From a virus: a stretch of DNA of 64,000 nucleotides. Shown here one piece after another: positions 16,934 to 39,159 of this stretch. The DNA is taken from the IMG/VR virus record IMGVR_UViG_3300033997_000310, positions 50,802 to 114,801 of that record; one strand, 5' to 3'. Below the pieces are notes generated by a model. The model searched no databases, was not told where the DNA came from, and was given only the letters and a program-made list of their open reading frames with translations. The translations under genes and the position numbers were made by a program. Position 1 is the first letter of the stretch. Each line of letters starts with the position of its first letter.

Positions 16934-18280
16934 ATGCCTGTCGTCAATGGAAACGAATACACCGCAGACGGCAACTTCAATGGCAACAAATACGCCGACT
17001 CTGCACTGGGGCTGATCCCGGCGCTGACGGACGTGGTTGCGCACTGCGAAGGCATCTTCCGCGGCACCAGCACCAGCAGTGTGACGGTGGGCAATGGCAC
17101 CAAGACGCTGACCATCAGCCTGAACCGGCCGATCTACATCGGCTCGTGGGTGCGCATTGAGGCGCAGGCGAACAGCGCCATCTCGATGGAGGGTACGGTC
17201 ACCGCCTACGACAGCGGCACCGGGGTGCTGTCCGTCTCGGTTGACCCCTCTGACGTCAGCGGAGCCGGCACGCTGGCGGCCTGGTACATCTTCACGATGG
17301 GCCGGCGCGGCAAGGACGGCAATGCGGGAACTTTGGCGACGAACAGCGTGGCGGGCGTGGCTGCGCTGGCAACGCAGGCGGAGGTGGACGGCCGCACCAT
17401 CACGGGCAAGATCGTGGCCCCGTCCACGCTGGCGGAAGGGCTGGGCCTGAAGGGCACCGACATCGCCAGCGCATCCACGCTGACGCTGCCCACCATCGGC
17501 GACTATTTTAACGTGACTGGCACCACTGGCATCACCGCCATCAGCACCAGGGCAGCCGGGCGGGACGTTACCCTGGTGTTTGCCGCATCCCTGACTGTGA
17601 CACATAACGGCACCTCGCTGATCCTGCCGGGCGGCGCAAACATCACTGTCGCGGCCGGTGATGTCATGCGCCTGAAGTCCGAGGGAAGTGGAAATTGGAG
17701 GTGCGTCAGCTTCAATAGGGCAAGCCTTGCTGCTGGAGCGCCGGCCCCCGGTGAGTATCTCCTGTCCTATCAGGCCGTGACCGGCTCCCCGTCCCAGATC
17801 GATATCACTTCAGGAATCACCTCGGCGTATGATCTTTATGTGGTGCGGTTCCTTCTGGTAACGTTTAACAGCATCGTGTCAATCGGGTTGCAGATCGGAA
17901 GCGGCTCTTTCACCACCACGAACTATTTGTATGGCTCCAGTATCAGCCGTAGTTCTTCCGGATCAGTCAGCGCCGCCAATTCAACTTCAGCGTCGGCAAT
18001 TATGTTGACCGCTGCGGGTGACGTTGTGAGCGGTCGTGACGTGATTGGCGAGGTGATTATCAACCGTGCTGATAGCGGGTCTAGTTCCGGTGTGCTTGCG
18101 CGATTCTGGAGCATGTATAGCTATACAGCGGCATCACCAGCGGAAATTGTGCATGTCGTAGGCGCTGGTTGGCGCGCGCCGACACCGATCACTGTCATCG
18201 ACCGAATCCGCCTTCTTCCTTCGTCCGGCACATTCCAGAACGCTGGTTACGTCAACCTCTATGGCATCAGGAAGTCGTAA
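16934..18280 (+). CDS. Tail fibre / receptor-binding protein
   Basis: GVAALATQAEV fibre repeat and KGTDIASASTLTL module; lower-GC C-terminal domain. Confidence 0.75.
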   Translation: MPVVNGNEYTADGNFNGNKYADSALGLIPALTDVVAHCEGIFRGTSTSSVTVGNGTKTLTISLNRPIYIGSWVRIEAQANSAISMEGTVTAYDSGTGVLSVSVDPSDVSGAGTLAAWYIFTMGRRGKDGNAGTLATNSVAGVAALATQAEVDGRTITGKIVAPSTLAEGLGLKGTDIASASTLTLPTIGDYFNVTGTTGITAISTRAAGRDVTLVFAASLTVTHNGTSLILPGGANITVAAGDVMRLKSEGSGNWRCVSFNRASLAAGAPAPGEYLLSYQAVTGSPSQIDITSGITSAYDLYVVRFLLVTFNSIVSIGLQIGSGSFTTTNYLYGSSISRSSSGSVSAANSTSASAIMLTAAGDVVSGRDVIGEVIINRADSGSSSGVLARFWSMYSYTAASPAEIVHVVGAGWRAPTPITVIDRIRLLPSSGTFQNAGYVNLYGIRKS

Positions 18281-19094: not shown

Positions 19095-19391
19095 ATGGCA
19101 TATGCCCTTGTGTCTGGCGGCACGGTCGTCAACGTCACCGTGGTCGAGCTTGATGATCCTGAGGCCGATGGCTGGATAGAAATTCCAGACGGCCTACCCG
19201 TGGTTCCGGGCTGGACTTACGCCGATGACACATTCACCGCACCAATTCCATCGCAGGATCAGATAGACGCGCGCAACGCCCCGCTGGTGAAGCAGCAGGT
19301 GAACGCGCGCTTGGAACGTCGGGCTAAGGCCCTGGCTGCTGACGGGGACCGCATCGGTGCCCTTGAACTTCGCATCCAGAAGGAGACATGA
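19095..19391 (+). CDS. Small tail-associated protein
   Basis: GGAGG RBS; YALVSGGTVVN..GWTY..FTAP motif common next to fibre genes. Confidence 0.6.
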   Translation: MAYALVSGGTVVNVTVVELDDPEADGWIEIPDGLPVVPGWTYADDTFTAPIPSQDQIDARNAPLVKQQVNARLERRAKALAADGDRIGALELRIQKET

Positions 19392-19392
19392 C

Positions 19393-19677
19393 ATGGCAAC
19401 GGGATACCGCCGCCTCAATGACGGTGATGGCGCAACGCTGGCCAAGGACGCATGCGCCTTGCTGCTGGCGGCACAGAGCAAGCTGGCCCAGGCCGCAGCG
19501 ATGGCTGGTGCCGTCCTGGCGCGCGGAACGGCCGCCGAACTGGAGGGCGCTGAATTCGGCGCACAGTCTGGTGAAGGGCAGGCCGTGCATGACGAGATCG
19601 CTGGCCTGAGCAGCGCGCTTGACACCTTCATGTCCACCAATGCGACCAACATCGCCCGGTACAATCCGGGCGGCTGA
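19393..19677 (+). CDS. Hypothetical protein
   Basis: AGGAG RBS; last + strand gene before the terminator. Confidence 0.6.
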   Translation: MATGYRRLNDGDGATLAKDACALLLAAQSKLAQAAAMAGAVLARGTAAELEGAEFGAQSGEGQAVHDEIAGLSSALDTFMSTNATNIARYNPGG

Positions 19678-19693
19678 TCCAGCTATGAAAGAC

Positions 19694-19730
19694 AAAGGCG
19701 CTCACGGTCAAAAGCCGTAGAGCGCCTTTT
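19694..19730. terminator. Bidirectional intrinsic terminator
   Basis: AAAGGCGCTCACGG...CCGTAGAGCGCCTTTT between convergent genes. Confidence 0.8.
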
Positions 19731-20354
19731 CTATTCTTCGTAAGCAGTCATCGAGAAAGCCAGCGTTTTCGCGGCCCCGGCGCGGTTTGTCATGCGGATC
19801 AGGTAATTGGTCGATGCCTTGAAAATGATTTCGTTGTCGAACCGGAAGTCACCACCAACGGCAGACGATTTCGTCCCGCCTGGATTGAAGCCGGAGTAAA
19901 GCAACGTGCCCGTGGCTGATATGGTCGGTGTGTAAAATGTGTCCGTATCAGGCATGGCCGCGCTGGAGCGGTTGCGATTATGCACCGTCACTGCCGTGCC
20001 ATCACCGCTCACTGTAGTGCCTTCGTAGATCAGAATTTCAAAGTTTCCACCGCCGACAACGTCGCAAATGGCGTGGCACTCAATTCCAGCCGGCACCTTG
20101 ATCAGGATGTCGGCGTTCGCGTCATCGGCAACCGAAGAAAATACATGGCTGAAGGTGAAGACCTGACCCAGATGGATCCGCTGGTGCACGATCGGCATCG
20201 TGACCAGGGAAGCGCCGATGGCGTCGCTGCCGTTGCGCGATTCGGAGTTGGTTAACTCCACCGGCATTGGCGTAGCCGGCTTGACGACTGTCCGGTTCCC
20301 GCCGGCACTGGCGAACGCGGCAACGTGGATTGGTTCAACGAGCGGTTCGGTCAT
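19731..20354 (-). CDS. Hypothetical beta-rich phage protein
   Basis: Clean 207-aa ORF on the same strand as the cas locus and downstream of it. Confidence 0.65.
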   Translation of the reverse strand: MTEPLVEPIHVAAFASAGGNRTVVKPATPMPVELTNSESRNGSDAIGASLVTMPIVHQRIHLGQVFTFSHVFSSVADDANADILIKVPAGIECHAICDVVGGGNFEILIYEGTTVSGDGTAVTVHNRNRSSAAMPDTDTFYTPTISATGTLLYSGFNPGGTKSSAVGGDFRFDNEIIFKASTNYLIRMTNRAGAAKTLAFSMTAYEE

Positions 20355-20467: not shown

Positions 20468-20634
20468 TTTTTCGTCCACGCTCATTTGCGTGGTGAGTGA
20501 ATCCAGCCCCAGGTAAACGAGATTCTGCCCCTCATTGCCGCTCCCACTAAGTGCGGGGTGAGTGATCCAGCGCGATGCCATTCATATAAGGCTGTCATGT
20601 TGTCACCCCCGCCCAAATGCGGGGTATGTGAACC
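20468..20634 (-). CRISPR. Mini-array: 3 divergent ~36-nt repeats and 2 ~30-nt spacers
   Basis: Repeats start at about 20468, 20534 and 20599 (period 65-66). The 20599 copy GTTGTCACCCCCGCCCAAATGCGGGGTATGTGAACC closely matches the main-array repeat at 23876. Confidence 0.75.
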
Positions 20635-20692
20635 GATCCAGCCACAAAGCACTGACATGGAAAGAAAACCAGCGCCTGTGACCAGGGAAAAA

Positions 20693-22906
20693 TCACGCTG
20701 CGACCTCCTGTTTCACCGCATACGGGAACACTTCCGCGTAACCGTACACATCATCAAACCCCGACCGGAACCGTTCCGGGATGCAGTCGGAGAAGCCGGC
20801 GAACGAGGCGTCGTTGTAAGCCCGCGCCCGGCGGTTGCTGGTGATGCTCTGCGGCAGCGGGAACCGTGGATCGAGCATCCAAACCCGCACGTCGTCGCTG
20901 GCCTGACGGATGCCGCGACCGAAGCCCTGTTTCAGCCGCTTCTTGGCCCCCAGGGCGACGCTGGAGAAGTCGATAGCCCGGATGGCATCTTCCGACAGCC
21001 CGCGCGCACGCAGGGCCGCCGCACGGGCCCCAGAGCGGGCATTATCGAGCGATCCGAACGGCAGTCGGGTGACGACGAGGTTCTGCACCATGCCGGGCAG
21101 ATCGACGCCTTCCCATGCCGCCGGGGAAATCAGCAGAGCGTTCGGCGTTTCGCGGTACTTGGCCAGCGCATCAACCAGCTTCGTGCCGCGCACATGCTCA
21201 ATCACGTCAACCCCAGCCGCACGGACGCAAGCGGCAATTGCCTGCGTGTCGACATAGCTCGTGGTCAGCACCAGCGTGCGCCCGCCGGCGGCATGGGCCG
21301 CAACGACGCCATCAGCGGCATATTCAACCCAGGCCGGGTTGGTGGTGACGATTTCCTCATCGTCGACCTTGGCCGTGGGGCGGGGAGCGGCGCGATCCGC
21401 CAAATGCAGGGAAGACCAGCGCCCGAACACTTCCGGCGCGAACCGCTGGCACCGATCCGGCGACACGTTCTTGACCTTCTCCGGGTTGGACCGGTCGTAA
21501 TAGATGCCGACCTCGCTGCGGAACGACCGGAAGTCGGCATCGCTTTCCGACTGGCTCCGAGCCGGCGCGTCCAGGGTGGCGCTGGTGAAGACCAGCGAAC
21601 GCAGGAACGGCGCATATTCCGTGCCGTCCGACGACTTGCCGGGCTTGAACAGGCGCGCGGCCAGCCGGCCAGGATAGACCGGCACGATGCTGAGGGACGG
21701 ATAGGAGCGTACCGGAGACCAGCGCAGCAGCGGGCACTGAATGGCCGAATGCTCGCCTTCCTTGGCGTCCAGCGTGCCGTTGGCGAAGCTGCGCAGTTCC
21801 TCCACCATGTCACGCATCTCCGCGACGACACCGGCATCAACGCCGGCTTTCTTGCCGCGCGTGGAAGCCTCCAGCAGCAGACCGCTGAGATAGACCGCGT
21901 GCCCCACGGCTTCCTTGCGCAGATCGGCCATGTTCGGGGCCGAAAGCAGGACATGCCCGCCACGATCATCGCGCGTGAAGCCGGGGCGATGCTCCATCTT
22001 CTCGAAGGTGGCCCCCATCCATGCTTCCCAATCCTTCAGGGCGGCGAACGCCTTGATGGTGTCGATACCGGCGTCACTGACGGCGGTGAGCGTGCGGCGC
22101 ATCATCGGGGCAGAGACGCGAGTGTCAAAAACCGATTCGGCGGCGTGCGGGATGCGGTCGGCCTCATCGATCACGCCGATATCGAATCCGTCGCTTTCAC
22201 CGGCCAGCAGCCGGTTCCACCGGATGGCGGAAATCATGGTCAGGGCATGGTTGGTGACGACGATATCGGCGGTATGACTGCCAACAACGTGGTCCTTGTA
22301 CCGCTGCTGGTCATCGTCGCTGCACACGGCGGTGAGGCACACGTCTGCCTCGGAAATGCCGCACGGCAGCGGGCCGAACGTCTCTTTCCACTCCGCGATA
22401 TCGCCGCTGGCCTCTGCGAAGCTGCGCAGCGCCTCCAGGCTGATCCGGGCATCGTCCGTGAGCGCGCCATCGGTGGCCATGGCAGCCATCAGTGCAACGA
22501 TGCGGGACGGTGACAGGAAGTTGCGGCGACCCTTGCGCACGGCGGCGCTGATCTGGATTCCGGTGATGGCCTTGGCGACCGCGATGGCGACCGGCACGTC
22601 CTTGCCCATCAACTGCGTCTGCAGATTGATGGTGTATGTGCTGACCAAGCCGCGCTGCCCGGTGCGGGCGCAATGCACGGCCATGGGAACCAGATAGCCC
22701 AGCGACTTGCCGACGCCGGTTTCGGCTTCATAGAGCGACACTTCGCCGATGCCGGGTGTGGCGTTCTCGAAGCTGTTGGCAACCGCCTTGGCGTAGGCGA
22801 TTTGCTGGGGATTGGGGCGATACGCCTTGCCCAGCTTCTTCATTTCGGCATCAACGGGACCGCCAGCGGCGAACGCGGCGGCGACGATTTCAGAGAGAGT
22901 CGGCAT
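20693..22906 (-). CDS. csf4: CRISPR-associated DinG helicase (type IV-A)
   Basis: EAETGVGKS, IDEAD, SAT, EGVD and QGFGRGIR SF2 motifs; flanked by arrays; next to csf2. Confidence 0.9.
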   Translation of the reverse strand: MPTLSEIVAAAFAAGGPVDAEMKKLGKAYRPNPQQIAYAKAVANSFENATPGIGEVSLYEAETGVGKSLGYLVPMAVHCARTGQRGLVSTYTINLQTQLMGKDVPVAIAVAKAITGIQISAAVRKGRRNFLSPSRIVALMAAMATDGALTDDARISLEALRSFAEASGDIAEWKETFGPLPCGISEADVCLTAVCSDDDQQRYKDHVVGSHTADIVVTNHALTMISAIRWNRLLAGESDGFDIGVIDEADRIPHAAESVFDTRVSAPMMRRTLTAVSDAGIDTIKAFAALKDWEAWMGATFEKMEHRPGFTRDDRGGHVLLSAPNMADLRKEAVGHAVYLSGLLLEASTRGKKAGVDAGVVAEMRDMVEELRSFANGTLDAKEGEHSAIQCPLLRWSPVRSYPSLSIVPVYPGRLAARLFKPGKSSDGTEYAPFLRSLVFTSATLDAPARSQSESDADFRSFRSEVGIYYDRSNPEKVKNVSPDRCQRFAPEVFGRWSSLHLADRAAPRPTAKVDDEEIVTTNPAWVEYAADGVVAAHAAGGRTLVLTTSYVDTQAIAACVRAAGVDVIEHVRGTKLVDALAKYRETPNALLISPAAWEGVDLPGMVQNLVVTRLPFGSLDNARSGARAAALRARGLSEDAIRAIDFSSVALGAKKRLKQGFGRGIRQASDDVRVWMLDPRFPLPQSITSNRRARAYNDASFAGFSDCIPERFRSGFDDVYGYAEVFPYAVKQEVAA

Positions 22907-23020
22907 GTTTGAGTTCCTGTTTGCAGATGGTGATGGGAAAGGTACATCATGGCGGGCAATGAGAAAAGTGCATAATTTGACCGGCCCCGGCAGGCGGGGG
23001 GATTTTTGCGTTCATCACTC

Positions 23021-24307
23021 AGTTGACGGACCCGCAGCGGCGGGTGGCGGCATGAACGAGAAGCCGCAGTTGCGCACCTCTTTTTCGTCCCCGCGCTGGC
23101 GGGGAAAGGGGCGTTGCCGAATCCGTCCTTTATCAATTTCCATACCCGCAACTGCGTGGTCGCTTGGTCGGCGGTCGTGACCGCTCCACCACCGAGTTTT
23201 CACCCCCGCGTGTGCGGGGAAGGCCACGGCTGTCTTGCGCGTCGGTCTACGGAGCCATTTTTCATCCCCGCGCGTGCGGAGCAGCATTGGCGCTGGATAT
23301 CATCGCGGACCTGAACCAATTTCCGTCCCCGCACGTGCGGGGGAGGCCTGGACGGCAGAGACCTACCAGCGCCTCGATTGTTTTCGTCCCCGCGCGTGCG
23401 GGGGATACCCCGCCACCTATCGCCGCAATGGCGTGTTCCTGTTTTCGTCCCCGCGCGTGCGGGGGAGGAATGAACATCCAATCAATGTGCAAGCCCTGCC
23501 ACTTTCCGCCCCCGCCCATGCAAGGCTTCCCATTTTATCAAGCAGTCGTCATTGGCCGCTCTTTCCACCCCCGCCATGCAGGGAACCGTCCGCCCGATGT
23601 TGGCTCCATCCATCTGGTTGTCGTCCCAACGAGTGCTGGGAAAGTGATTCTGCCACGGGTTGAAATGGTGGCGTCGATATTTTCACCCCCACTGGATTGC
23701 GGGGTAGGTGAGGCATCGTATCGGTTTCGTCAGACCCGGCCAAGTTTCCGTCCCCACCAGAATGCGGGGCAAGAGAGACGAAGGCTGGCACGTTCAAGGT
23801 GGTGTTCGTGTTTCCGTCCCCACCAGAATGCGGGGTAAGCAAAACGCTGTCCTTGCCGCTGGTACGTCGCCTCACGTTTCCGGCCCCGCCCAAATGCGGG
23901 GTATGTGAACCCTCATTTTTCCGATTTCGTACCCATCAAACGTTTTCGTCCCCGCCCAAATGCGGGGTAAGAGAGACACATGCACAAGGCTGGCCTGATA
24001 ACCGGTTGTTTCCGTCCCCACCTAAATGCGGGGTAAGAGAGACCGGCGCCCGGGTGAAGCGGATGGCCCGCCAGTTGTCGTCCCCACCTAAATGCGGGGT
24101 AAGAGAGACACATCGGGGGGTGAATCCGAACAGCGATCTGTTGTCGTCCCCACCTAAATGCGGGGTAAGAGAGACGCTCGTCATCGCTCAGAAGATCCCG
24201 CTCCAGTTGTCGTCCCCACCTAAATGCGGGGTAAGAGAGACTCCCGCCGACGGCCATCGGGCGCGGTATAGGTTGTCGTCCCCACCTAAATGCGGGGTAA
24301 GAGAGAC
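23021..24307 (-). CRISPR. Main CRISPR array, about 21 repeats of two classes
   Basis: Ten 36-nt repeats start at 23679, 23744, 23810, 23876, 23942, 24008, 24074, 24140, 24206 and 24272; the last four are identical (GTTGTCGTCCCCACCTAAATGCGGGGTAAGAGAGAC). About 11 shorter repeats start at 23021, 23081, 23136, 23196, 23258, 23319, 23380, 23441, 23502, 23561 and 23617 (e.g. GTTTTCGTCCCCGCGCGTGCGGGGGATAC). Confidence 0.95.
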
Positions 24308-24408
24308 TGATCCTAACACAACTCATTGCAATCAAATACGAATTACGCATTCGCATTTGAAAAAAACCATGATGTACTTGTTCAAGAACCGGTGAAAATG
24401 CGCGCTTT
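24308..24408 (-). promoter_or_regulatory. CRISPR leader
   Basis: AT-rich non-coding stretch abutting the most conserved repeats. Confidence 0.7.
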
Positions 24409-25470
24409 TTACGGCGCGCGGAAGTTCAGGCTGGTCACGTCGGTGGCATCCCAGGCCGCCAGCGCGGAAGCGATGATGCCGGTATCCAGCAACTCCAGGC
24501 CACCGAACGGTTCGATCTGGACGCTGCCGACATTTGCGAAGCCGTCACCTTCCCGCACCGTCACCGTCCAGGTGCCGCTGATCACCCCGCAGCCGTGATT
24601 CGCGTGCGCCCCGACAACCGGGTCCAGCGCCAACTCACGCAGCGCGGCCAAGAACAGGCCCAACTCCAGCTTGGTCACGTTCCGCAGAACCATGCGCTGG
24701 TTCAGCACCTTACCCTGCGGGATCACCTCGTAACCGCCCAACACCTGCTTGATGTTGACGCCGGCGGCCTCGACCTGCCCCTTCAGCGCGTCACGCTTGG
24801 CGGACAGTTCCGCGACTTCAGCAGCCGCATCGGCATTGCCCTTGGCGTTCTTCACGGCCTTGCGCAGGGCCGTCTCGATGTTCTTCAGTTCGGCCTTGGC
24901 CTTGCTGTTGCTGGCACCTTCCTCCGACATGGACAGCCACTTGTCGCGCTCGCCATCAGCCAGGGTATTGAGCGTGTCCGGGGTGCGTTCCATGTCATCG
25001 CTGCGGATGCCAGCGATCTTATCCGGTTCGGTCGGCTGTTCCGGCACGGCATGGCTCACCATCAGCTTGCCGGCGGTATGCGCGGCCATGCTGCCGAAAA
25101 GCGAGATCAGCGGGTTCGCGGCACGCAGATTGGCCGCCGCGATGATATCGGCCTTGCTGTCGCTGCCCTTGTCCTTGATGCCGCCGACCACGTTGAAATA
25201 GTGGTCATCCAGGGTGAAGACGGGAGCGCCATCACCCTGCACCGCGCGGCGAACGACGGTGAGCGCGTGCCGACGCAGCTTTCCGCGCAAGCCGGAGCCA
25301 GGGAAATAGACGGTCTCGGCATTGCCCACGGTCATGCGGGGCAGACGCGACGGCGGGTTCTTCTCGCGTTCGGCGCGCTTCTCGGTCTCGGTCTTCGGCG
25401 GGCAGGTGGCCAGAGGCGATTCGGTGGTGATGGTGCCGTTCAGGACGACGGTATAGGTCTGGGTGTTCAT
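24409..25470 (-). CDS. csf2: Type IV CRISPR backbone subunit Cas7
   Basis: Motifs GTITTESPL, FPGSGLRGKLRR, NPLISLFGS, GKLMVSH and VGAHANHGCG. Start moved to ATG 25470 because the longer ORF runs through repeats. Confidence 0.9.
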   Translation of the reverse strand: MNTQTYTVVLNGTITTESPLATCPPKTETEKRAEREKNPPSRLPRMTVGNAETVYFPGSGLRGKLRRHALTVVRRAVQGDGAPVFTLDDHYFNVVGGIKDKGSDSKADIIAAANLRAANPLISLFGSMAAHTAGKLMVSHAVPEQPTEPDKIAGIRSDDMERTPDTLNTLADGERDKWLSMSEEGASNSKAKAELKNIETALRKAVKNAKGNADAAAEVAELSAKRDALKGQVEAAGVNIKQVLGGYEVIPQGKVLNQRMVLRNVTKLELGLFLAALRELALDPVVGAHANHGCGVISGTWTVTVREGDGFANVGSVQIEPFGGLELLDTGIIASALAAWDATDVTSLNFRAP

Positions 25471-25520
25471 GTTCGTGTTCCATGTTGGGTAGGTGCGGGG
25501 TGGCCCGCGATCGAGTGTGT

Positions 25521-25858
25521 TTTGTCGGCCCCGCGTGGGCGGGGCATGAGCAGAAACCCACTCGACCTCTGGGCGGTGACTTTTCGCCCCCGCGTGTGCG
25601 GGGCGAGAGTCGGTCGGGATGTGGCCAATCACCTTCTCGTTATCGTACCCGCGCGGGTGCGGGTTTTGGTCTTGACTGTCACTGAACTTCGCAATCTCCA
25701 TCCTCTTGCCGTCCCCGTGCTCGTGCGGGGTGAGGGGTGCGTCGTTCGATTACTCGGATGACAACGAAGTCCTTACCGTCCCCGCGCACGTGCGAGGCAT
25801 CGGCTGTTGTGCTTTCGGATCAAGACCAGCCCTTTCCATCCCCACTCACGCCGGGAAC
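25521..25858 (-). CRISPR. Degenerate array between cas6 and csf2 (6 repeats)
   Basis: Handle plus CCCCGC..GCGGGG hairpin units start at 25521, 25580, 25639, 25705, 25772 and 25832 (periods 59, 59, 66, 67, 60). Confidence 0.75.
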
Positions 25859-26421
25859 AGCCGCAACATCCCCATGCCATAGCTCTTGGCCGGGCCGATG
25901 CCGATCTTCATCGCATCCGTCAGTGCATCGGCATCGGTAACGCGCAACGCGCCGGTGAAGGTGGTGAAATCTAAGCCGTCCTTGCCGATCTTCGCCTCGT
26001 TGCGCATGACATGGCGGAACTCTGTGCGGAGCGCGACTTGCTCGACCACGAAGCCGTGCTTCAGCCCGCGCGCCTTGAGCCAGTCCATCCGGCCCTCATC
26101 GTCCCCACGACGCAGCATCACGCGCTTGCCGCGCTGCCCGCCGTTGCGCTGATCCACGCGGATGCACCGCGTCGGATGCGCCGTCAGCACGAAGCGGTAC
26201 GTGCAGCCTTCGACTGGCAATGCCACGTCGTCGGCGTGCTGGGCAACTGTATCGGGCAGGTTGTCTGAGCGAATCACGATGCCAGGCGCGGCCTCGTCAA
26301 TCGCAAACAGGAAATCCCGCGTCTTGTCGCTGCCTTCACCAAGCATGAAGGCATAGGCCATTTCATGCAGAGCATAGCGGTTGTGGGGCAGGGCGGGCAG
26401 TTGGATGGAGACTTCACGCAT
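25846..26421 (-). CDS. cas6: Cas6e-like crRNA endoribonuclease
   Basis: C-terminal G-loop GIGPAKSYGMGML; YRFVLTAHPT, WL....KHGF and FTGALRVTD motifs. Confidence 0.9.
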   Translation of the reverse strand: MREVSIQLPALPHNRYALHEMAYAFMLGEGSDKTRDFLFAIDEAAPGIVIRSDNLPDTVAQHADDVALPVEGCTYRFVLTAHPTRCIRVDQRNGGQRGKRVMLRRGDDEGRMDWLKARGLKHGFVVEQVALRTEFRHVMRNEAKIGKDGLDFTTFTGALRVTDADALTDAMKIGIGPAKSYGMGMLRLFPA

Positions 26422-26424
26422 TTT

Positions 26425-27114
26425 TCAGCCCTCGTTCTTCTCGCGGTCACCGCACAGCAGCGACAGCATGTTGAAATCATCGCTGCCCACGGCGGGCAGG
26501 CGGTCGATAACGGCGTCCAGCGCCGGGCACTTGACGATCATGGCGTCGATTTCTGCGTCGATCGATTCCGCCTCTGAGTGATTGCGCTTACGGCGCTCCA
26601 GGGCGCGGGCGGCGGCCCGCCATTGCATCGGCGCGATGCCGTCCAGATCGGCATAAAGGCCTGCAACCAGGGCGCGGTTGATGGTTGCGGTCTCGACGCC
26701 GGAAAGGCTGATCACATCGCTGCCGTAATTGATCCGCCAGTTGTGGATCGTGTTCCAGTCCTTGCCATGGATGACGACCATGAACGGGCTGGCCGGCGGC
26801 GACAGGACGATTTCGGCAATCCAGTTGGGAATAGTGCGCCAAGATCCATCATGGATCACAGTGCTGGCCGGCGGCTGGCGGCACGGCTTGATATCGGCCA
26901 TCAGCACGCAGCCGGTCTCAGTGACCAGCGACATGGCCTTGCCGCCACCCAGGCGAACCGCAGAACCGGCATTGGCCGCGTGCGCGTGGTTGCGGGACAG
27001 GGCAACGATGGCCGGATTGCTTTCATTACTCACGGCAGAATGAAGGTACTGGCCAATGCCGCGATACCAGAAATCCAGCGGGTCAAGGTTGATGATGTCC
27101 ATTGCTTGCCTCAT
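26425..27114 (-). CDS. csf1: Type IV large subunit (Csf1/Cas8-like, no zinc finger)
   Basis: Position between csf3 and cas6; LSPPASPFMVV resembles the Csf1 L.PP.PPF motif; no CxxC pairs. Confidence 0.6.
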   Translation of the reverse strand: MRQAMDIINLDPLDFWYRGIGQYLHSAVSNESNPAIVALSRNHAHAANAGSAVRLGGGKAMSLVTETGCVLMADIKPCRQPPASTVIHDGSWRTIPNWIAEIVLSPPASPFMVVIHGKDWNTIHNWRINYGSDVISLSGVETATINRALVAGLYADLDGIAPMQWRAAARALERRKRNHSEAESIDAEIDAMIVKCPALDAVIDRLPAVGSDDFNMLSLLCGDREKNEG

Positions 27115-27797
27115 GCGGCCAGAAAGCGCGGGGAAATCACGGCGTCGCCAACCGGATTAGGCACGGCGCACAGTGCGTAGTCGCCTTGCCAATACGGCGG
27201 CTGAAATCGCTCCGCATTCAGCGCGGCGCGCTGATTGGACAGCTTCCCCCAGATGCTGACGGGGACAGGCCGGGCCGGACTGCCATCAGCCAGGGCCAAG
27301 CCGACGTGGTGGCCAGTCACTTCCCGCACATCAATGCGGGACACCTGACCATATCCGACGGAACGCTTGGTTCCGATGCCAGATGCGTCGGACAGCAAAT
27401 CCTTGACGGCGGCAACGTCTCCGGTTCCGCAGAACCAGACGGCATCGGCATTGATGCTGGTGTATTCCGACAGGCTGTTCTGGTAATCGCCCCGCGCGCT
27501 GTCGATGCGCGGGAGCGCCTTGCGCCCGCCGTTCGGCCGGATCATGTCCGGCGTAATTTCCATGTCGGCACGGATTGAGCCGACGATCATCACGCCGCGC
27601 AATGGAGAATTGCCATCGATGAAAGCCTGCGAACCAGCCCAGACGCCGCTGCTGCGATCCAGCGGGATTTCTGCGTGTGCGCGTTCAACGCTGCCGGTGC
27701 GCTCATAAATCAGCGCCGCAAGCAGTCCATCAAGCAGCAGCCGACGACCCGGAATGACCGGTGTTGCCATGCTGATCTTGATCACAAACGGGGTCAT
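27111..27797 (-). CDS. csf3: Type IV CRISPR Cas5 subunit
   Basis: Motifs LLDGLLAA, IPL, WFCGTGD, GIGTKRSVGYGQV, ARPVP and PPYW. Start uncertain (27797 or 27854). Confidence 0.85.
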   Translation of the reverse strand: MTPFVIKISMATPVIPGRRLLLDGLLAALIYERTGSVERAHAEIPLDRSSGVWAGSQAFIDGNSPLRGVMIVGSIRADMEITPDMIRPNGGRKALPRIDSARGDYQNSLSEYTSINADAVWFCGTGDVAAVKDLLSDASGIGTKRSVGYGQVSRIDVREVTGHHVGLALADGSPARPVPVSIWGKLSNQRAALNAERFQPPYWQGDYALCAVPNPVGDAVISPRFLAA

Positions 27798-27962
27798 CCG
27801 ACCTCCTGTTGTCTGCGTTTCGATGGGCTGATATTGATAAATTCCATTACGCAACGCAAGCAGGAAAATGAGAAAAGTTCATTATATTGCTGCGAGGCAT
27901 GAGATTGGACGTTTTCCAGATTCGCGGTATGATGGCGCGACTCGGGAAGCAATGGGGCCGCC

Positions 27963-28616
27963 ATGTCGATCATCACGCTTTCGCTGCTGGCAGCCGCCAT
28001 GCCGGACTCCACTACACAGAACCGCGAGCGATATGCCGATCCGCTGGGCGACGCCTGCGTTCGCTTCGGAATCACGTCCCCCAAGCAAATCGCCATGTTC
28101 ATTGCCCAAGTCGGGCATGAGAGCGGCTATCTCCGTAGCGTTCAGGAAAGCCTGAACTACCGGGCCGAGGCGCTGGTTCCGACCTTCGGTTCGCATCGCA
28201 TCACCGCTGAACAGGCGGCCCGGCTTGGCCGTTCCGGTGATCGTCCGGCTGATCAACAGGGCATCGCCAACGTCGTGTATGGCGGAAGGTTCGGCCAGGA
28301 CATTCTTGGCAACACCGAACCAGGCGACGGCTGGCGGTTCCGCGGCCGCGGGCTGATCCAGACGACGGGCCGGAAGAACTATGCGACGTGCGGGGCTGGT
28401 ATCGGCCTCGACCTGATCAGCAATCCTGACTTGCTTCTTGAGCCTGAACATGCCGCCGCGTCAGCCGGTTGGTTCTGGTCATCGCGTGGTCTGAACCGGT
28501 TCGCGGACGCTGGAGACCTTGAAGGTTGCACCAAGAAGGTCAACGGCGGACTGAAGGGCTTGGATGATCGCCGGGCCATCTATGACCGCGCCCGGAAAGT
28601 GTTCGGGTTGCCATGA
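27963..28616 (+). CDS. Endolysin, glycoside hydrolase family 19
   Basis: FIAQVGHESG, ESLNY, GDGWRFRGRGLIQTTGRKNY and VNGGLKGLDDR motifs. Confidence 0.93.
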   Translation: MSIITLSLLAAAMPDSTTQNRERYADPLGDACVRFGITSPKQIAMFIAQVGHESGYLRSVQESLNYRAEALVPTFGSHRITAEQAARLGRSGDRPADQQGIANVVYGGRFGQDILGNTEPGDGWRFRGRGLIQTTGRKNYATCGAGIGLDLISNPDLLLEPEHAAASAGWFWSSRGLNRFADAGDLEGCTKKVNGGLKGLDDRRAIYDRARKVFGLP

Positions 28617-28888
28617 CCGATTCCGCTTACACACACACCGAAGGCGCTTTCCCGAACACCCCGCGCTGGTCTGCTCGGCGCTTTGGCATGATCCTGGCCC
28701 TGTTTATGTCCGGCGTCATCATGATCGGCCTTGGCGTGCATCCAGGTATTGCGGAAGCGCGGGCACTCCGCCTGATCGACGCCGGAACGGAATGCCTCAT
28801 GTTTTCGTCGCTTGGCTTTGCGTTTGCCGCGTCGGCTGAGCGCATCGGCGGGTGGTGGACTGCCAAGCGACCGGTGGCGGCATCATGA
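28613..28888 (+). CDS. Putative holin
   Basis: 91 aa with two TM segments; overlaps the endolysin stop. Confidence 0.6.
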   Translation: MTDSAYTHTEGAFPNTPRWSARRFGMILALFMSGVIMIGLGVHPGIAEARALRLIDAGTECLMFSSLGFAFAASAERIGGWWTAKRPVAAS

Positions 28889-29163
28889 AGCTGCTGTTCT
28901 GCCGGGAATGCGGCGATGTCCGCAAGCTGCATGTCAATCGTGAATTGCATGCGTGCGCCTGTGGTGCGTCCGCTGGCCGGTATGTCGATGGGCTGAACGC
29001 CGAAGTGACCGGCCCGTGCCTCGCTCTTGGCATCGACAACAACTCGCTGCGCCTGGCTCTCACAAACCACGAGCGGTCACCACGTATGGACGGCCTGGGT
29101 CACCGCATCGAGGCGTTCATCATCCCTGAAACGGCCCCAACCCTTCGGAGGGTGCAAAGATGA
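28885..29163 (+). CDS. Small Cys-rich hypothetical protein
   Basis: MKLLFCRECGD..CACG; ATGA-coupled at both ends. Confidence 0.65.
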   Translation: MKLLFCRECGDVRKLHVNRELHACACGASAGRYVDGLNAEVTGPCLALGIDNNSLRLALTNHERSPRMDGLGHRIEAFIIPETAPTLRRVQR

Positions 29164-29666
29164 TTCCGTTCATTGCGCCACTGCTGGCCGGGCGCGGCCT
29201 AAAGCTGCTGCTGATCGGCGGCGCTGTCGCTGCCGTTGGCTTCGCCGGCTTCCTGGCATACCGCTACGTGGACGGCCTGACCGAAAAGGTCGCCATCCTG
29301 TCGGCCAACAACGCCAAGCTGGAACTGGCATTCCAAGAGGCACAGGCCCGTGGCGATGCGCTGCGGGACCATATCCAGCGCGTGGCCATCGAGGTGGAGG
29401 AAAACAACAAGCGCCTGTCCGATCTGGCGGTTGAAGCCGCCACCGCCCGCGCCGAAGCCAAGGCCACCGCCAACCTTTTCGCCAAGCACGACTTCAAGGG
29501 GCTCGTCAATGCCAAGCCGGAACTTCTGGAGAAGCGCATCAATGCTGGCACTGCTCGCGTGCAGCGCCTGCTCGAACAAGCCAGCACCGTTGGAGGTGAA
29601 GCTGGCTCCGGAGCCGCCGCCGGCCAAGGTGCAACTGGCGCTGCCTCCGGTTCCGGACCCCGTTGA
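29160..29666 (+). CDS. Inner-membrane spanin (Rz-like)
   Basis: N-terminal TM helix, coiled coil and AKPELLEKRIN motif. Confidence 0.8.
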   Translation: MIPFIAPLLAGRGLKLLLIGGAVAAVGFAGFLAYRYVDGLTEKVAILSANNAKLELAFQEAQARGDALRDHIQRVAIEVEENNKRLSDLAVEAATARAEAKATANLFAKHDFKGLVNAKPELLEKRINAGTARVQRLLEQASTVGGEAGSGAAAGQGATGAASGSGPR

Positions 29667-30473: not shown

Positions 30474-31748
30474 TTACTTGATGGCGATTTTGACAATGGT
30501 ACTGACTTGACCATCGAAGCCAAACTTTGGCGCGTGGTTTTCTACCATCTCATCTTTGTACGATTGCAGCAGATGGCCGTAGTGCTTCTCCACCATGCGG
30601 GTGTCCGTATGCCCAAGGTTCTGCGCCAGCACCAGCATCGGCATGCCGTTCATCAGGCTGAGGCTGGCATAGGTGTGTCGCAGCTCGTGGAAAGTGCAGC
30701 GCGGCTCGATCCGGCCATTCACGCATGCGGCTTCCACCCGGCGTGATTGGTGGTTTGGCCCCCACGGGTCGCCGTCCGGCCTGGGTAGCATCGGCGTCGT
30801 TTTATGTCGGCCGGCAACCTGTGCATCGAAGAACGCACGGCCTTCTGCTGTGAGGCTGATCCAGCGCGACTTGCCGTCTTTCGTGTCGCCAAAGAACAGC
30901 CGGCCCTGCTGATAATCGCCCACCCGCAACCGGCATAGCTCGCTGTATCGCGCGCCCGTGTGCAGGCCCGCAATGATCATGGGGCGGAAATCAGGATCGC
31001 AGGCATTCACCAGTCGGCGGGCCTCGTCCGGCTCCAGAAAACGGATGCGCGCGGCGTCGACGCCCTCAAACGGCTCGATGCGATCCCAGGCCGCGGTGCT
31101 GATGGCCTCGTTCTCGCGTGCGGCATGGTTCAGCAGCGCCTTCAACGTCGTCAGCACACCGTTCGCAGTGCTGCGCCGGGCCCTGATCTCGTCCTTCGTC
31201 TGCGGCGGCGGGGCAAATTTCTGCGCCTCACCCTTGCGCGTGCGCAGCCGGCGGCCGGAGCTGGCCACCTTGTTGAGCCATGTTCGGATCTGACGACTGG
31301 TCAGTTCGCGCACCACCAGCTTGCCCAGGTCGGGCAGGATGTGCGCGTCGATCGTTTTCTGGAACTGCTGCACCGACTTCCGCTGCGTGCGGAACCAGGC
31401 CATGTAGTCGTCCGCGGCCTCTTTCACAGTGAGGTCGGCCCGGCCCCGGCCGGCCAGCTCGTGCGCGCGGGCCTCGAACCAATCGCGCGCCGCGCCCTGC
31501 GCCTGCTGCCAGGACAGGACATGCACGCCGTCCGCGTCCAGCGTGTCGTCTGCGGCGCCAAGGCGGCGCTCCTCGTGCTTCTTGTCGCCCAGATACATGC
31601 GGGCGATCCAGGCCCCGCCGGTGGCCGTCTTGCGGTAGCCAATGCTCCGGCCATGCTCCAGGGTATGCCAGTAGGGTTTCTTCGAGGCGGAAAGCCGCTC
31701 ACGGCCCTTGCGGGTCTCCAAGCGGCTGTCGCGGGTTAGCCGTGCCAT
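30474..31748 (-). CDS. int: Tyrosine integrase
   Basis: TGARYSEL, FHELRHTYAS and LGH..MVEKHY catalytic motifs; arm-binding N-terminus. Confidence 0.95.
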   Translation of the reverse strand: MARLTRDSRLETRKGRERLSASKKPYWHTLEHGRSIGYRKTATGGAWIARMYLGDKKHEERRLGAADDTLDADGVHVLSWQQAQGAARDWFEARAHELAGRGRADLTVKEAADDYMAWFRTQRKSVQQFQKTIDAHILPDLGKLVVRELTSRQIRTWLNKVASSGRRLRTRKGEAQKFAPPPQTKDEIRARRSTANGVLTTLKALLNHAARENEAISTAAWDRIEPFEGVDAARIRFLEPDEARRLVNACDPDFRPMIIAGLHTGARYSELCRLRVGDYQQGRLFFGDTKDGKSRWISLTAEGRAFFDAQVAGRHKTTPMLPRPDGDPWGPNHQSRRVEAACVNGRIEPRCTFHELRHTYASLSLMNGMPMLVLAQNLGHTDTRMVEKHYGHLLQSYKDEMVENHAPKFGFDGQVSTIVKIAIK

Positions 31749-37549: not shown

Positions 37550-39154
37550 TCAGAGATGTTCGGCCAGGGCGGCGCGGATGTCGGCCAGCGTCTGATGACG
37601 CTTCATCTGGCCATTCTCGAATACGACCTCCAGCACGCCGGCGTTGGCCTGCTCGCGCGTCTGCCGATCCAGCAGATGGAAGCCGAAGCCGGTCTTCTCG
37701 ACACGGATCAGGCCAGCGGCCGACTTCTTCACGCCACTGTCGGTCTTCGGGTCCTTCTGCAGGACGCGCTCCTCGCCGTTGACGACGCCATAGGTGGCCT
37801 TGATCGCCGTGCCGAAGGTATCGCGGGTGACGTACTGGTAGGTGTAACTGCCGATGCCCAGCACCACGTTCGTGCTGGCAAATCCCTTGGCGGCCAGGCG
37901 CTTCAAGATGCGCTCCGCCCGATCCAGGGTGATGCTGTCGCCGTAGATCAGGCCGACGTGGCTGTCCAACTGCCGGTGACCTGTGCTTGTCTCGGTGCCG
38001 CCGAACACGTCCCACAGGCACTGGATAGCGCCGCGCTGGGCCGGAGTTGGCTCCCATATCCGATGCGTCGAAATGCTGGGCCCGTGCGCGGCACCGGTGT
38101 TGTGGGCCTCGACTTTGTAGAAGTGGCCGTCCTGGTGGAACACATCCACCCCAGCCTGCAGCATGTCCATCAGGCTGACGAACTCGCTGCGATCCGGCAC
38201 GCCGCAGATGATGTCGACCGGGTCGCCGCTATCGGGCCGGAACACCACCTTGCCGTCGCGCGCCAGGATCTCATCCTTTAGCTTGACCGTGAACTCGGTC
38301 ATCACCTTCCAGAAATCCCAGGTGTCGCTGACGATGCTGACGATACCGGACGGGTAGGTGTGGATCAGGCGGCGGAAGGTTTCGACTTCGTCATCATGCC
38401 CGCCCATGCACATGACGCTGTGCTCCGTGGCCGGCACGGACCCGCCGACGAAGGTCTCGGCGCCGCTGTAATATTCCTCCAGGAAGTCGATGGCGGGGAT
38501 GGTATCGGTTCCGGTGAAGCTCAGCAGGTGGGCCGCGCCGCTCGACATGGCGTCGTGAATGCCGCTCATGCCCCGGAAGCTGAAATCGTGGCCCTGCCAC
38601 AGCGCGAAGGCGGGATCACCGCCGGTCTCGACCGCCATGCGATGGAACAGCCGGCGATACTCAAAGGCGGTAGTCGCCGTCGTCATCGGCTTCCACAGTT
38701 CGGCGCTCAGTTGCGTCTCGACATAGTTTGTCAGCCACGCGAAATCTGGGTGTGTGTTCTCGATCGTGAACATGGGCACGCGGATGTCGACGCGACTGCC
38801 TTCCGGCACGGCCTTGATGCGCAGCGGCAGATAGCCCAGGTCATGCAGCGCCGCGATGTGATCCGCGCCGACCGCTCCGGCGCCCAGATAGCCGTCCATG
38901 CGACGCGTGTAACGGGCGACGACCGTATCCCGAGACAAGCCGAAGAACGAGCGGTCCCAGGTGTCGATCAGGAGCCACTGACACACGGCCTGGAGACCGA
39001 AGAACACGACCTTGTGGTCGAAGTCAGACAGCATCTTGGCGTGCGCATCACCGCGGCACGTCCAGTTGCTGTAGACCAGTTGGGTGCCGGGCGGATACTG
39101 CTTGCGATGCCCGGTCTTATAGCCATCGGTGGCGTGGGGTGCGAAGATGTTCAT
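37550..39154 (-). CDS. Nicotinamide phosphoribosyltransferase-like protein (NAMPT/Namat)
   Basis: TDGYKTGH, HDFSFRG, SVPATEHSVM, SIVSDTWD, RPDSGDP, IYGDSIT and KDPKTD motifs. Confidence 0.93.
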   Translation of the reverse strand: MNIFAPHATDGYKTGHRKQYPPGTQLVYSNWTCRGDAHAKMLSDFDHKVVFFGLQAVCQWLLIDTWDRSFFGLSRDTVVARYTRRMDGYLGAGAVGADHIAALHDLGYLPLRIKAVPEGSRVDIRVPMFTIENTHPDFAWLTNYVETQLSAELWKPMTTATTAFEYRRLFHRMAVETGGDPAFALWQGHDFSFRGMSGIHDAMSSGAAHLLSFTGTDTIPAIDFLEEYYSGAETFVGGSVPATEHSVMCMGGHDDEVETFRRLIHTYPSGIVSIVSDTWDFWKVMTEFTVKLKDEILARDGKVVFRPDSGDPVDIICGVPDRSEFVSLMDMLQAGVDVFHQDGHFYKVEAHNTGAAHGPSISTHRIWEPTPAQRGAIQCLWDVFGGTETSTGHRQLDSHVGLIYGDSITLDRAERILKRLAAKGFASTNVVLGIGSYTYQYVTRDTFGTAIKATYGVVNGEERVLQKDPKTDSGVKKSAAGLIRVEKTGFGFHLLDRQTREQANAGVLEVVFENGQMKRHQTLADIRAALAEHL

Positions 39155-39159
39155 GGTGT

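What the first reader, a model, noticed from the sequence alone, without database searches (positions are those of the whole stretch)
20468..27854. Complete type IV-A CRISPR-Cas locus in a temperate phage, between tail-fibre and lysis genes
Seen: csf3, csf1-like, cas6e, csf2 and dinG lie antisense to the late genes, with no cas1, cas2 or cas3. Known: type IV-A is mostly on plasmids/ICEs and acts by DinG-dependent silencing without cleavage; Cas6e with a divergent large subunit is the IV-A3 pattern. Inference: the phage uses RNA-guided repression against competing elements or host genes. Four identical leader-proximal repeats suggest recent acquisition.
Basis: partly seen in the sequence, partly recalled or inferred. 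Interest (0 to 1): 0.85.

Follow-up and report, generated by a model that had tools for sequence, protein, structure and literature searches.

The report
Type IV-A CRISPR-Cas on temperate phage

Summary
PADLOC/Pfam profiles identify Csf3/Cas5, Cas6e, Csf2/Cas7 and CasDinG on the minus strand. The unnamed 225-229-aa gene between csf3 and cas6e folds most like the type IV-A large subunits. There are three arrays on the same strand: 20, 6 and 3 repeats, 26 spacers in all. The whole 114.8-kb circular record has no Cas1 or Cas2.

The record is a real tailed phage: terminase, portal, major head, tape measure, endolysin, spanin, integrase. An independent assembly joins the locus to tail genes on one side and lysis/integrase genes on the other at equal depth. 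Two other IMG/VR contigs keep the same cas genes beside an 81%-identical integrase.

The "IV-A3" label is only partly right. Cas6e, Csf2 and DinG are closest to Klebsiella IV-A3, at about 29% identity. But the gene order differs (cas5-cas8like-cas6e-array-cas7-array-dinG). The large subunit has no zinc-finger cysteines. The newest repeats are 36 nt with 30-nt spacers. In a Csf2 tree the phage clade falls outside Klebsiella IV-A3.

No spacer target was found, so a role in competition between mobile elements is inferred. Reviews already say type IV occurs in some (pro)phages. This scan had noted phage-borne IV-B on other DNA, but no other IV-A among the notes listed.

The parts
27111..27797 (-). 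csf3 (cas5), 228 aa; first gene of the operon
   Evidence: PADLOC Csf3_0_IV E 2.4e-37. PDB Csf3 chains 8rc3_F and 7xfz_B at about 1e-5. ATG at 27797 behind GGAGG. 56% identical in L003/L004 and 46% in L014.
26425..27114 (-). Large-subunit candidate (cas8/csf1-like), 225-229 aa, with no zinc-finger cysteines
   Evidence: No HMM or PDB sequence match. Same position in L003, L004, L014 and L011; hhalign against the Methylobacter protein gives prob 97%, E 1e-10. AF2 model has pLDDT 67. Its three best PDB matches are the IV-A large subunits: 8rc2_G Z 6.7, 7xg1_A Z 5.9, 8rc3_G Z 4.9; unrelated rows score 4.0 or less. No invariant Cys in alignment A2.
25846..26421 (-). cas6e, 191 aa, the pre-crRNA endoribonuclease
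   Evidence: PF08798 E 9e-26; PADLOC Cas6e 2.5e-24; E. coli CasE 4e-10. In the printed alignment a His lies opposite the His of the CasE YQLHQ motif, and the GIGPAKS loop is kept.
25517..25855 (-). Internal degenerate array of 6 repeat-like units (5 spacers) between cas6e and csf2; the first unit overlaps the cas6e stop codon
   Evidence: L014 has about 12 repeats in the same gap.
24409..25470 (-). csf2 (cas7), 353 aa, the backbone subunit
   Evidence: PADLOC Csf2_0_IV 1.2e-52 and Csf2_1_IVA3 1e-33. Best PDB match is 8rc2_A at 8e-39, which is Klebsiella IV-A3 Cas7. Gene-called length 353 aa.
24308..24408 (-). A+T-rich leader between the csf2 stop codon and the newest repeat
   Evidence: Sequence. 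It adjoins the identical repeats. L003 has an 84-nt gap at the same place.
23081..24307 (-). Main CRISPR array: 20 repeats and 19 spacers. The ten leader-proximal units are a 36-nt repeat plus a 29-30-nt spacer (period 65-66). The distal units are about 29 + 32 nt (period 55-62) and degenerate.
   Evidence: Hairpins are more stable on the minus strand: -10.9 against -6.4 kcal/mol for the newest repeats, summed -325 against -272. The repeat layout of 5-10 nt + stem-loop + 8-nt handle ACGACAAC matches the I-E/IV-A3 layout only on the minus strand.
20693..22906 (-). CasDinG (csf4), 737 aa
   Evidence: PADLOC Csf4_0_IVA 2e-140; Helicase_C_2; best PDB match is IV-A3 DinG 8s35_M at 1e-32. Walker A (TGVGKS), DEAD box (VIDEADR) and QGFGRGIR motifs are present and are invariant in alignment A4.
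20468..20634 (-). Mini-array of 3 repeats (2 spacers of 30 nt) just downstream of dinG
   Evidence: One unit carries a compensatory stem change (CCACGC...GCGTGG).
27798..27962 (.). Divergent intergenic region between csf3 and the endolysin gene; the likely cas promoter region
   Evidence: Sequence: TTGCGT-17 nt-CAATAT on the minus strand, read by eye. The consensus scan was uninformative.
16934..18280 (+). Last large tail gene upstream (weak tail-fibre match), following tail genes from 12385
   Evidence: phrog_910 E 4.5e-6; phrog_5939 tail protein for 14735-16933; tape measure 7322-12385.
27963..29666 (+). Lysis cassette: endolysin 27963-28616 and Rz-like spanin 29160-29666
   Evidence: phrog_181 E 2.9e-82; phrog_739 E 1.3e-11.
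30474..31748 (-). Tyrosine integrase
   Evidence: phrog_1 E 7e-55. 81% identical in L003/L004, where it sits in the same position relative to the cas genes.

Best explanation
This is an intact type IV-A CRISPR-Cas interference module, carried as an accessory gene block by a 115-kb integrase-bearing tailed phage.

Inferred steps:
1. The block is transcribed on the minus strand, against the late genes, from the csf3-endolysin intergenic region and from the leader after csf2. It is probably expressed in the lysogen.
2. Cas6e cuts the pre-crRNA at the 3' base of each repeat hairpin and leaves the 8-nt 5' handle ACGACAAC.
3. Cas5, the zinc-finger-less Cas8-like protein, a Cas7 filament and Cas6e assemble on each crRNA.
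4. The complex forms an R-loop on matching double-stranded DNA and recruits CasDinG.
5. DinG's helicase activity blocks transcription or replication without cutting the target, as shown experimentally for IV-A1 and IV-A3.
6. The likely payoff is exclusion of competing plasmids or phages from the lysogen.
7. New spacers must come from a host Cas1-Cas2 acting in trans.

Shown here: gene identities, intact motifs, array structure and strand, phage context, contiguity, and conservation in related phage contigs. Everything else is inferred: expression, complex assembly, targets, PAM and source of spacers.
For: Profile matches for four Cas proteins. Fold match of the fifth to the three solved IV-A large subunits.

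DinG helicase motifs are intact. Cas6e keeps a His opposite the His of E. coli CasE's YQLHQ motif, and the Gly-rich loop.

The repeats fold as hairpins on the minus strand with G-U pairs that would be A-C mismatches on the plus strand. There are four identical leader-proximal repeats next to an A+T-rich leader. All 19 main-array spacers differ, and their pairwise identity is no higher than in shuffles.

No Cas1 or Cas2 in the whole record.

Phage hallmark genes are present. The contig is circular with a 127-bp end overlap.

An independent assembly of run X1 gives a 95.9-kb contig spanning tail genes-dinG-array and an 18.5-kb contig spanning array-csf2...csf3-lysis-integrase. Both have about 88x depth, and the only break is inside the identical repeats.

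The same cas genes sit next to an 81%-identical integrase in IMG/VR contigs L003 and L004, with Cas proteins 41-70% identical. That implies retention under selection within this phage group.

The mechanism of IV-A interference and of in-trans acquisition comes from PMC11519345 and bioRxiv 10.1101/2023.06.23.546257.
Against: No spacer has a detectable target, so neither function nor PAM is shown. Two of the three arrays and the distal half of the main array are degenerate. The large subunit lacks the zinc finger used for PAM reading in IV-A1 and IV-A3, and its model is only of moderate confidence (pLDDT 67). The host is unknown, and so is any Cas1-Cas2 that would fit 36-nt repeats with 30-nt spacers.
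Confidence: 0.75

Rival explanations
1. The system is used mainly to control host genes, or to switch off a host defence or satellite element, rather than to exclude competing plasmids or phages. Precedents are the Pseudomonas oleovorans IV-A1 crRNA against pilN and the phage ICP1 type I-F system against PLE.
For: IV-A acts by silencing and is known to regulate a chromosomal gene (PMC11551745; PMC11656645). No spacer matched any phage or plasmid in large collections, which leaves host DNA as a possible target pool. One sub-threshold 25/27 match of spacer 4 falls in a Ralstonia MATE transporter gene, but at E = 4 it counts as chance.
Against: There is no significant host match and the host is unidentified. 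Spacers of environmental CRISPR arrays usually lack database matches whatever they target.
Confidence: 0.15
2. The locus is a decaying relic: the genes are still open, but the arrays are no longer updated or used.
For: The distal main-array units, the internal array and the dinG-distal mini-array are degenerate. The phage has no adaptation genes. No targets were found.
Against: All five reading frames are intact with catalytic motifs. Four repeats are identical and adjoin a leader. The same genes are kept at 41-70% protein identity in related phage contigs, and at 34-46% in L014. Degenerate trailer repeats are normal in working arrays.
Confidence: 0.08
3. The phage context is an artefact: either an assembly chimera, or a plasmid or integrative element mislabelled as a virus.
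For: IMG/VR records are metagenome contigs. Type IV-A is typical of plasmids. The nearest cultured relative with the same operon order lies on a Methylobacter plasmid.
Against: A second assembly gives two contigs of equal depth that add up to about 114.5 kb and break only within the identical repeats. Terminase, portal, head, tape-measure, tail, lysis and integrase genes are present. L003 and L004 show the same junction with the integrase and spanin.
Confidence: 0.02

Closest known systems
Type IV-A3 CRISPR-Cas of Klebsiella pneumoniae IncHI1B/IncFIB plasmids (PDB 8RC2, 8S35-8S37; PMC11519345; PMC7434947)
   Same: Same parts list: Cas5, a Cas8-like large subunit, Cas6e, Cas7, CasDinG and an array with an I-E-like hairpin repeat and 8-nt handle; no Cas1/2 and no nuclease. 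It is the best solved match for Csf2 (8e-39), for DinG (1e-32) and for the large-subunit fold (Z 6.7).
   Different: Csf2 is only about 29% identical. The Klebsiella order is cas8-cas6e-dinG-cas5-cas7-array; here it is cas5-cas8like-cas6e-array-cas7-array-dinG-array. The large subunit shares no detectable sequence with Klebsiella Cas8 and has no zinc-finger cysteines. The newest repeats are 36 nt with 30-nt spacers, against 29 + 32. The carrier is a tailed phage, not a conjugative plasmid. The Csf2 tree puts Klebsiella outside the 135-tip clade that holds the phage.
Unnamed IV-A loci with the same operon order: Methylobacter sp. YRD-M1 plasmid NZ_CP091425 (L011), metagenome contig L014, Chromatiales MAG JAKRWE010000023 (L002)
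   Same: They share the order csf3-large subunit-cas6e-csf2-(array)-dinG. L011 and L014 have an array between csf2 and dinG, and L014 also has one between cas6e and csf2. The large-subunit family is shared.
   Different: Proteins are 23-46% identical. Their repeats are the ordinary 28-29 nt with a period of about 61. No phage structural genes were seen in the stretches held.
IMG/VR contigs L003 and L004 (UViG_3300042295_001486, UViG_3300042564_004864)
   Same: The closest relatives. The integrase is 81% identical; csf3 56%, the large subunit 64%, cas6e 41% and csf2 60-70%, all in the same order and neighbourhood. L003's array also has a 66-nt period, a 36-nt repeat and the handle ACGACAAC.
   Different: They are short fragments that end in the array or in csf2, so dinG and the tail genes are not seen. 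There are only 60 nt between cas6e and csf2, so no internal array. The spacers differ and do not target this phage.
Type IV-A1 of Pseudomonas oleovorans and P. aeruginosa (PDB 8RC3, 7XFZ-7XG4)
   Same: Same subtype and mechanism. Csf3 matches at about 1e-5, and the Csf1 folds match at Z 4.9-5.9.
   Different: Csf2 matches only at 1e-5. IV-A1 uses a Csf5/Cas6f-type Cas6 and a zinc-finger Csf1.

Membership tests
CRISPR-Cas subtype IV-A | Csf2 (Cas7) and Csf3 (Cas5) of the type IV families | tested here: met
   Csf2_0_IV 1.2e-52 and Csf3_0_IV 2.4e-37; solved IV-A chains are the best PDB matches.
CRISPR-Cas subtype IV-A | CasDinG (Csf4) helicase in the locus, with intact helicase motifs | tested here: met
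   Csf4_0_IVA 2e-140. Walker A, DEAD box and motif VI are present and invariant in A4.
CRISPR-Cas subtype IV-A | No adaptation module (Cas1, Cas2) and no effector nuclease | tested here: met
   PF01867 and PF09827 find nothing in the 114.8-kb record, while the control genomes ring. DinG carries no extra Pfam nuclease domain. Cas3 and Cas10 were not searched as families.
CRISPR-Cas subtype IV-A | Large subunit (Csf1/Cas8-like) | tested here: inconclusive
   No sequence match. Right position and size. The top three structural matches are IV-A large subunits, but at middling Z (6.7, 5.9, 4.9) from a model with pLDDT 67.
CRISPR-Cas subtype IV-A | Associated CRISPR array and a Cas6 for processing | tested here: met
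   Three arrays lie on the cas strand. Cas6e keeps a His opposite the His of the CasE YQLHQ motif.
Variant IV-A3 (Pinilla-Redondo et al., PMC7038947) | Cas6 of the Cas6e kind | tested here: met
   PF08798 9e-26; E. coli CasE 4e-10.
Variant IV-A3 (Pinilla-Redondo et al., PMC7038947) | Cas8-like protein with a zinc-finger domain | tested here: not met
   There is no invariant Cys in the five-member family alignment, and His41 is the only invariant His. hhalign against Klebsiella Cas8 gives prob 0.4%.
Variant IV-A3 (Pinilla-Redondo et al., PMC7038947) | Groups with IV-A3 in a Csf2 tree | tested here: inconclusive
   In the FastTree of 159 Csf2 sequences, the phage clade of 4 has support 100. The Klebsiella and Aeromonas IV-A3 sequences lie outside a 135-tip clade (support 86) that contains the phage clade and Cas6f-bearing loci. 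Intermediate nodes have support 26-79, the root is at the midpoint, and no IV-A1 outgroup was included.
Temperate tailed phage (Caudoviricetes) | Terminase, portal, major head, tail and lysis genes plus an integrase on one closed molecule | tested here: met
   127-bp terminal overlap. IMG/VR completeness 100. Integration itself was not shown.

The most novel reading that the evidence does not exclude
This is a distinct, so far unnamed IV-A variant that phages have adopted. Its arrays sit inside the cas operon, so Cas6e cutting of the long transcript would tie crRNA supply to the expression of cas7 and dinG. Its large subunit reads the PAM without a zinc finger. In the phage branch the array has switched from 29-nt repeats with 32-nt spacers to 36-nt repeats with 30-nt spacers, which would mean that it now borrows a different, non-I-E adaptation machine from its host.
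Probability: 0.25. Interest if true: 0.75.

Novelty: new variant of a known kind. Interest (0 to 1): 0.6.

Why it matters
Type IV-A is the CRISPR type that silences rather than cuts, and it has been studied only on plasmids and integrative elements.

A closed genome of a temperate tailed phage with an apparently intact system gives a concrete case for asking whether phages use RNA-guided silencing against rival plasmids, rival phages or host genes. The system sits in the classic accessory-gene slot between tail and lysis genes and is conserved in related phage contigs.

It is rare. Csf2 found no relative in 50,697 GenBank phage records, and CasDinG found only partial matches to generic helicases. 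Pattern-limited scans found only three other IMG/VR contigs.

The zinc-finger-less large subunit, the arrays inside the operon and the 36/30 repeat-spacer design are testable departures. They bear on PAM recognition, on control of Cas stoichiometry and on how systems without Cas1-Cas2 obtain spacers.

Tried and rejected
Spacer targets. blastn-short of all 26 spacers against the phage's own genome found nothing of 18 nt or more. The array against GenBank phages gave only E = 4 noise. Against PLSDB plasmids it matched I-E-like repeats in Streptomyces and Acetobacter arrays, plus a 25/27 match of spacer 4 to a Ralstonia MATE gene at E = 4, which I treat as chance. Spacers 1, 2, 3 and 5, with every sixth base free, had no exact match in IMG/VR. 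Spacers of this phage and of L003 do not target each other's DNA in hand. No PAM could therefore be derived.

Repeat search. The newest repeat, as a degenerate pattern, was not found in the metagenome or viral collections. No Rfam family matched.

Plus-strand transcription of the arrays was rejected. It would put A-C mismatches in the stems and the 8-nt handle on the wrong side, and the degenerate units would lie next to the leader.

TRF's 132-nt period suggested duplicated two-unit blocks. This was rejected, because spacer pairs are no more alike than shuffled ones.

I first read PDB 8RC2 and 8S35 as IV-A1. A search with the Klebsiella Csf2 showed that they are IV-A3.

Host. In a sample of 400 genomes of the Chromatiales MAG's class, integrases were at most 45% identical and no taxonomy was given. 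The host remains unknown.

Megablast of the locus against phages and plasmids found no match.

No RNA holder was listed among the sequencing runs.

The promoter and terminator scan was no better than shuffles.

Full report
**What is there.** Window 20468-27854 holds five minus-strand genes and three repeat arrays.
- PADLOC and Pfam profiles identify CasDinG at 20693-22906 (Csf4_0_IVA, E 2e-140), Csf2/Cas7 within 24409-25701 (Csf2_0_IV, 1.2e-52), Cas6e at 25846-26421 (PF08798, 9e-26) and Csf3/Cas5 within 27111-27854 (Csf3_0_IV, 2.4e-37).
- The 229-aa ORF at 26425-27114 matches nothing by sequence.
- Two gene models needed correcting. Csf2 is 353 aa (24409-25470), and the rest of the 430-aa ORF is repeat DNA. 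csf3 starts at the ATG at 27797 behind a GGAGG.
- DinG keeps its Walker A, DEAD box and QGFGRGIR motifs.
- Cas6e has a His aligned opposite the His of E. coli CasE's YQLHQ motif, and it keeps the GIGPAKS loop.
- Cas1 and Cas2 profiles find nothing in the whole record.

**The arrays.**
- The main array (23081-24307) has 20 repeats and 19 spacers. It sits between csf2 and dinG, behind a 100-nt A+T-rich leader.
- Six degenerate units (25517-25855) fill the gap between cas6e and csf2. The first one overlaps the cas6e stop codon.
- Three units (20468-20634) follow dinG.
- On the minus strand every repeat reads as a short 5' flank, a CCCCGC...GYGGGG hairpin and an 8-nt handle (ACGACAAC or ACGAAAAC). 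That is the I-E/IV-A3 layout, as seen in the Klebsiella array.
- The stems contain G-U pairs on the minus strand that would be A-C mismatches on the plus strand. Predicted hairpin energies favour the minus strand: -10.9 against -6.4 kcal/mol for the newest repeats, and -325 against -272 in sum.
- The arrays are therefore co-oriented with the cas genes.
- The four leader-proximal repeats are identical 36-mers with 30-nt spacers. The distal units are about 29 + 32 nt and degenerate.
- The spacers are all different, and no more alike than shuffled controls.

**The unnamed protein.** It forms a small family that always lies between csf3 and cas6e.
- Identity to this protein is 64% in L003/L004, 37% in L014 and 23% in the Methylobacter plasmid. 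The hhalign probability against the Methylobacter protein is 97%.
- An AlphaFold model built from five sequences is of moderate quality: pLDDT 67, with a confident C-terminal helical bundle.
- Among 350,542 PDB chains, Foldseek's top match is the Klebsiella IV-A3 Cas8 (8rc2_G, prob 0.92, E 0.07).
- On re-alignment the top three matches are the three solved IV-A large subunits (Z 6.7, 5.9, 4.9), against 4.0 or less for unrelated chains.
- I read it as the large subunit. It has no sequence similarity to Klebsiella Cas8 and no conserved cysteines for the zinc finger that IV-A1 and IV-A3 use at the PAM (PMC11519345).

**The carrier.** The window is the last 64 kb of a 114,801-bp IMG/VR record with a 127-bp terminal overlap, which indicates a circular assembly.
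- It encodes a large terminase, portal, head-morphogenesis and major head proteins.
- It encodes a 1,687-aa tape measure, tail proteins, endolysin, Rz-like spanin and tyrosine integrase.
- It also encodes RecT, an O-like replication protein and an anti-repressor.
- The cas block lies between the last tail genes (up to 18280, plus a few small ORFs) and the endolysin (27963), antisense to both.

Logan's independent assembly of run X1, a subsurface metagenome that is probably the source sample, gives two contigs.
- A 95,945-bp contig covers 15001-24042.
- An 18,523-bp contig covers 24279-33000.
- Both have about 88x depth. The only break is inside the identical repeats, where a de Bruijn graph must break.
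- A soil sample from the same study holds short identical pieces of csf2, cas6e, the large-subunit gene and csf3.
- Two other IMG/VR contigs, L003 and L004, carry csf3, the large subunit, cas6e and csf2 in the same order next to an 81%-identical integrase and a spanin.

**Which IV-A?**
- The best solved matches for Csf2 (8rc2_A, 8e-39) and for DinG (8s35_M, 1e-32) are the Klebsiella IV-A3 proteins. I confirmed that label by searching with the Klebsiella plasmid Csf2. IV-A1 Csf2 matches only at 1e-5.
- Identity to Klebsiella Csf2 is nevertheless only about 29%.
- The Klebsiella order is cas8-cas6e-dinG-cas5-cas7-array. Here it is cas5-cas8like-cas6e-[array]-cas7-array-dinG-[array].
- That order recurs in a metagenome contig (L014, with arrays in both gaps), in a Methylobacter plasmid (L011, array between csf2 and dinG) and in a Chromatiales MAG (L002).
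- In a FastTree of 159 Csf2 sequences, the phage proteins form a four-member clade with support 100. The Klebsiella and Aeromonas IV-A3 sequences fall outside a 135-tip clade that holds the phage clade together with Cas6f-bearing loci. Deep nodes are weak, and the root is only a midpoint.
- The 36-nt repeat with a 29-30-nt spacer is shared with L003. L014, L011 and Klebsiella use about 29 + 32.
- My conclusion: a member of subtype IV-A, IV-A3-like in parts, but not IV-A3 in the strict sense.

**How it most likely works.** The mechanism is taken from published work on IV-A1 and IV-A3 (PMC11519345; bioRxiv 10.1101/2023.06.23.546257; PMC11656645).
- Cas6e processes the minus-strand transcript at the hairpins.
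- Cas5, the large subunit, a Cas7 filament and Cas6e assemble on each crRNA.
- R-loop formation on a matching DNA recruits CasDinG, and helicase-dependent interference silences the target without cleaving it.
- Its position as a counter-oriented block with its own intergenic region fits expression from the prophage.
- The benefit would be exclusion of rival plasmids or phages. Control of host genes is the main alternative.
- None of this was observed here. No spacer has a match in the phage itself, in 50,697 GenBank phages, in PLSDB or, for four spacers, in IMG/VR. The host could not be identified.

**How new.**
- Reviews already state that type IV systems occur in some phages and prophages, and that CRISPR systems are rare in phages under 200 kb (PMC11656645; PMC7038947).
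- Csf2 found no relative in the GenBank phage collection, and CasDinG found only partial matches to generic helicases.
- In IMG/VR, pattern-limited scans found only L003, L004 and one further IV-A3-like locus, L019.
- Csf2 has just three relatives at or above 60% identity in the searches made: P0002, P0003 and the Csf2 fragment of L004; L003's Csf2 lies in the same 60-62% range as P0003.
- Earlier notes of this scan list several phage-borne type IV-B cassettes on other genomes, but no other IV-A. Other first-stage notes on this same genome describe the array switch and the internal array, which I confirm.
- I rate it a new variant of a known kind, of moderate to good interest. It is limited by the lack of any target or expression evidence.

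Noticed in passing
window 23081-24307: Within one array the unit design changes. The distal units are about 29-nt repeats with 32-nt spacers (period 55-62). The ten leader-proximal units are 36-nt repeats with 29-30-nt spacers (period 65-66). The related contig L003 has the 36/30 design throughout. This suggests a change of adaptation partner.
   Followed up: partly
window 25517-25855; L014 3292-4006: Repeat units lie between cas6e and csf2 inside the operon, and one overlaps the cas6e stop codon. L014 has a well-kept array of about 12 repeats in the same gap, so Cas6e may cut the polycistronic mRNA there.
   Followed up: partly
window 37550-39966 (minus strand): There is an adjacent gene pair: a nicotinamide phosphoribosyltransferase-like gene (phrog_448, E 5e-192) and a ribose-phosphate pyrophosphokinase-like gene (phrog_619, 2e-74). 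From memory, this resembles the phage NAD+-reconstitution pathway that counters NAD-depleting defences. Not checked.
   Followed up: no
L019 5081-9899 (IMGVR_UViG_3300037336_000242, 60.5 kb): This is another IMG/VR contig with a IV-A-like locus, in the order cas5-csf2-cas8like-...-dinG. It is closer to Klebsiella IV-A3 (Csf2 35%, Cas8 28%). TRF saw no array in the 17.9 kb held. Whether the contig is a phage was not checked.
   Followed up: partly
L011 (Methylobacter sp. YRD-M1 plasmid NZ_CP091425, 215102-228082): It has the same operon order as the phage, with arrays upstream of csf3 and between csf2 and dinG. Just upstream are an antA/antB anti-repressor gene and an integrase-domain gene, so it may be a phage-derived insert or a phage-plasmid.
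   Followed up: no
genome 8942-51412 (L005-L007): The head genes are spread over about 42 kb: terminase at 8.9 kb, portal at 10.4 kb, head morphogenesis at 34.7 kb and major head at 50.4 kb, with many unrelated genes between them. That is unusual for a siphovirus-like late region.
   Followed up: no
window 19194-20354 (minus strand): Two further minus-strand ORFs (156 and 207 aa; the second matches phrog_5335, function unknown) lie between the dinG-distal mini-array and the tail genes. They may belong to the same accessory block. They are not found next to dinG in L011 or L014.
   Followed up: partly
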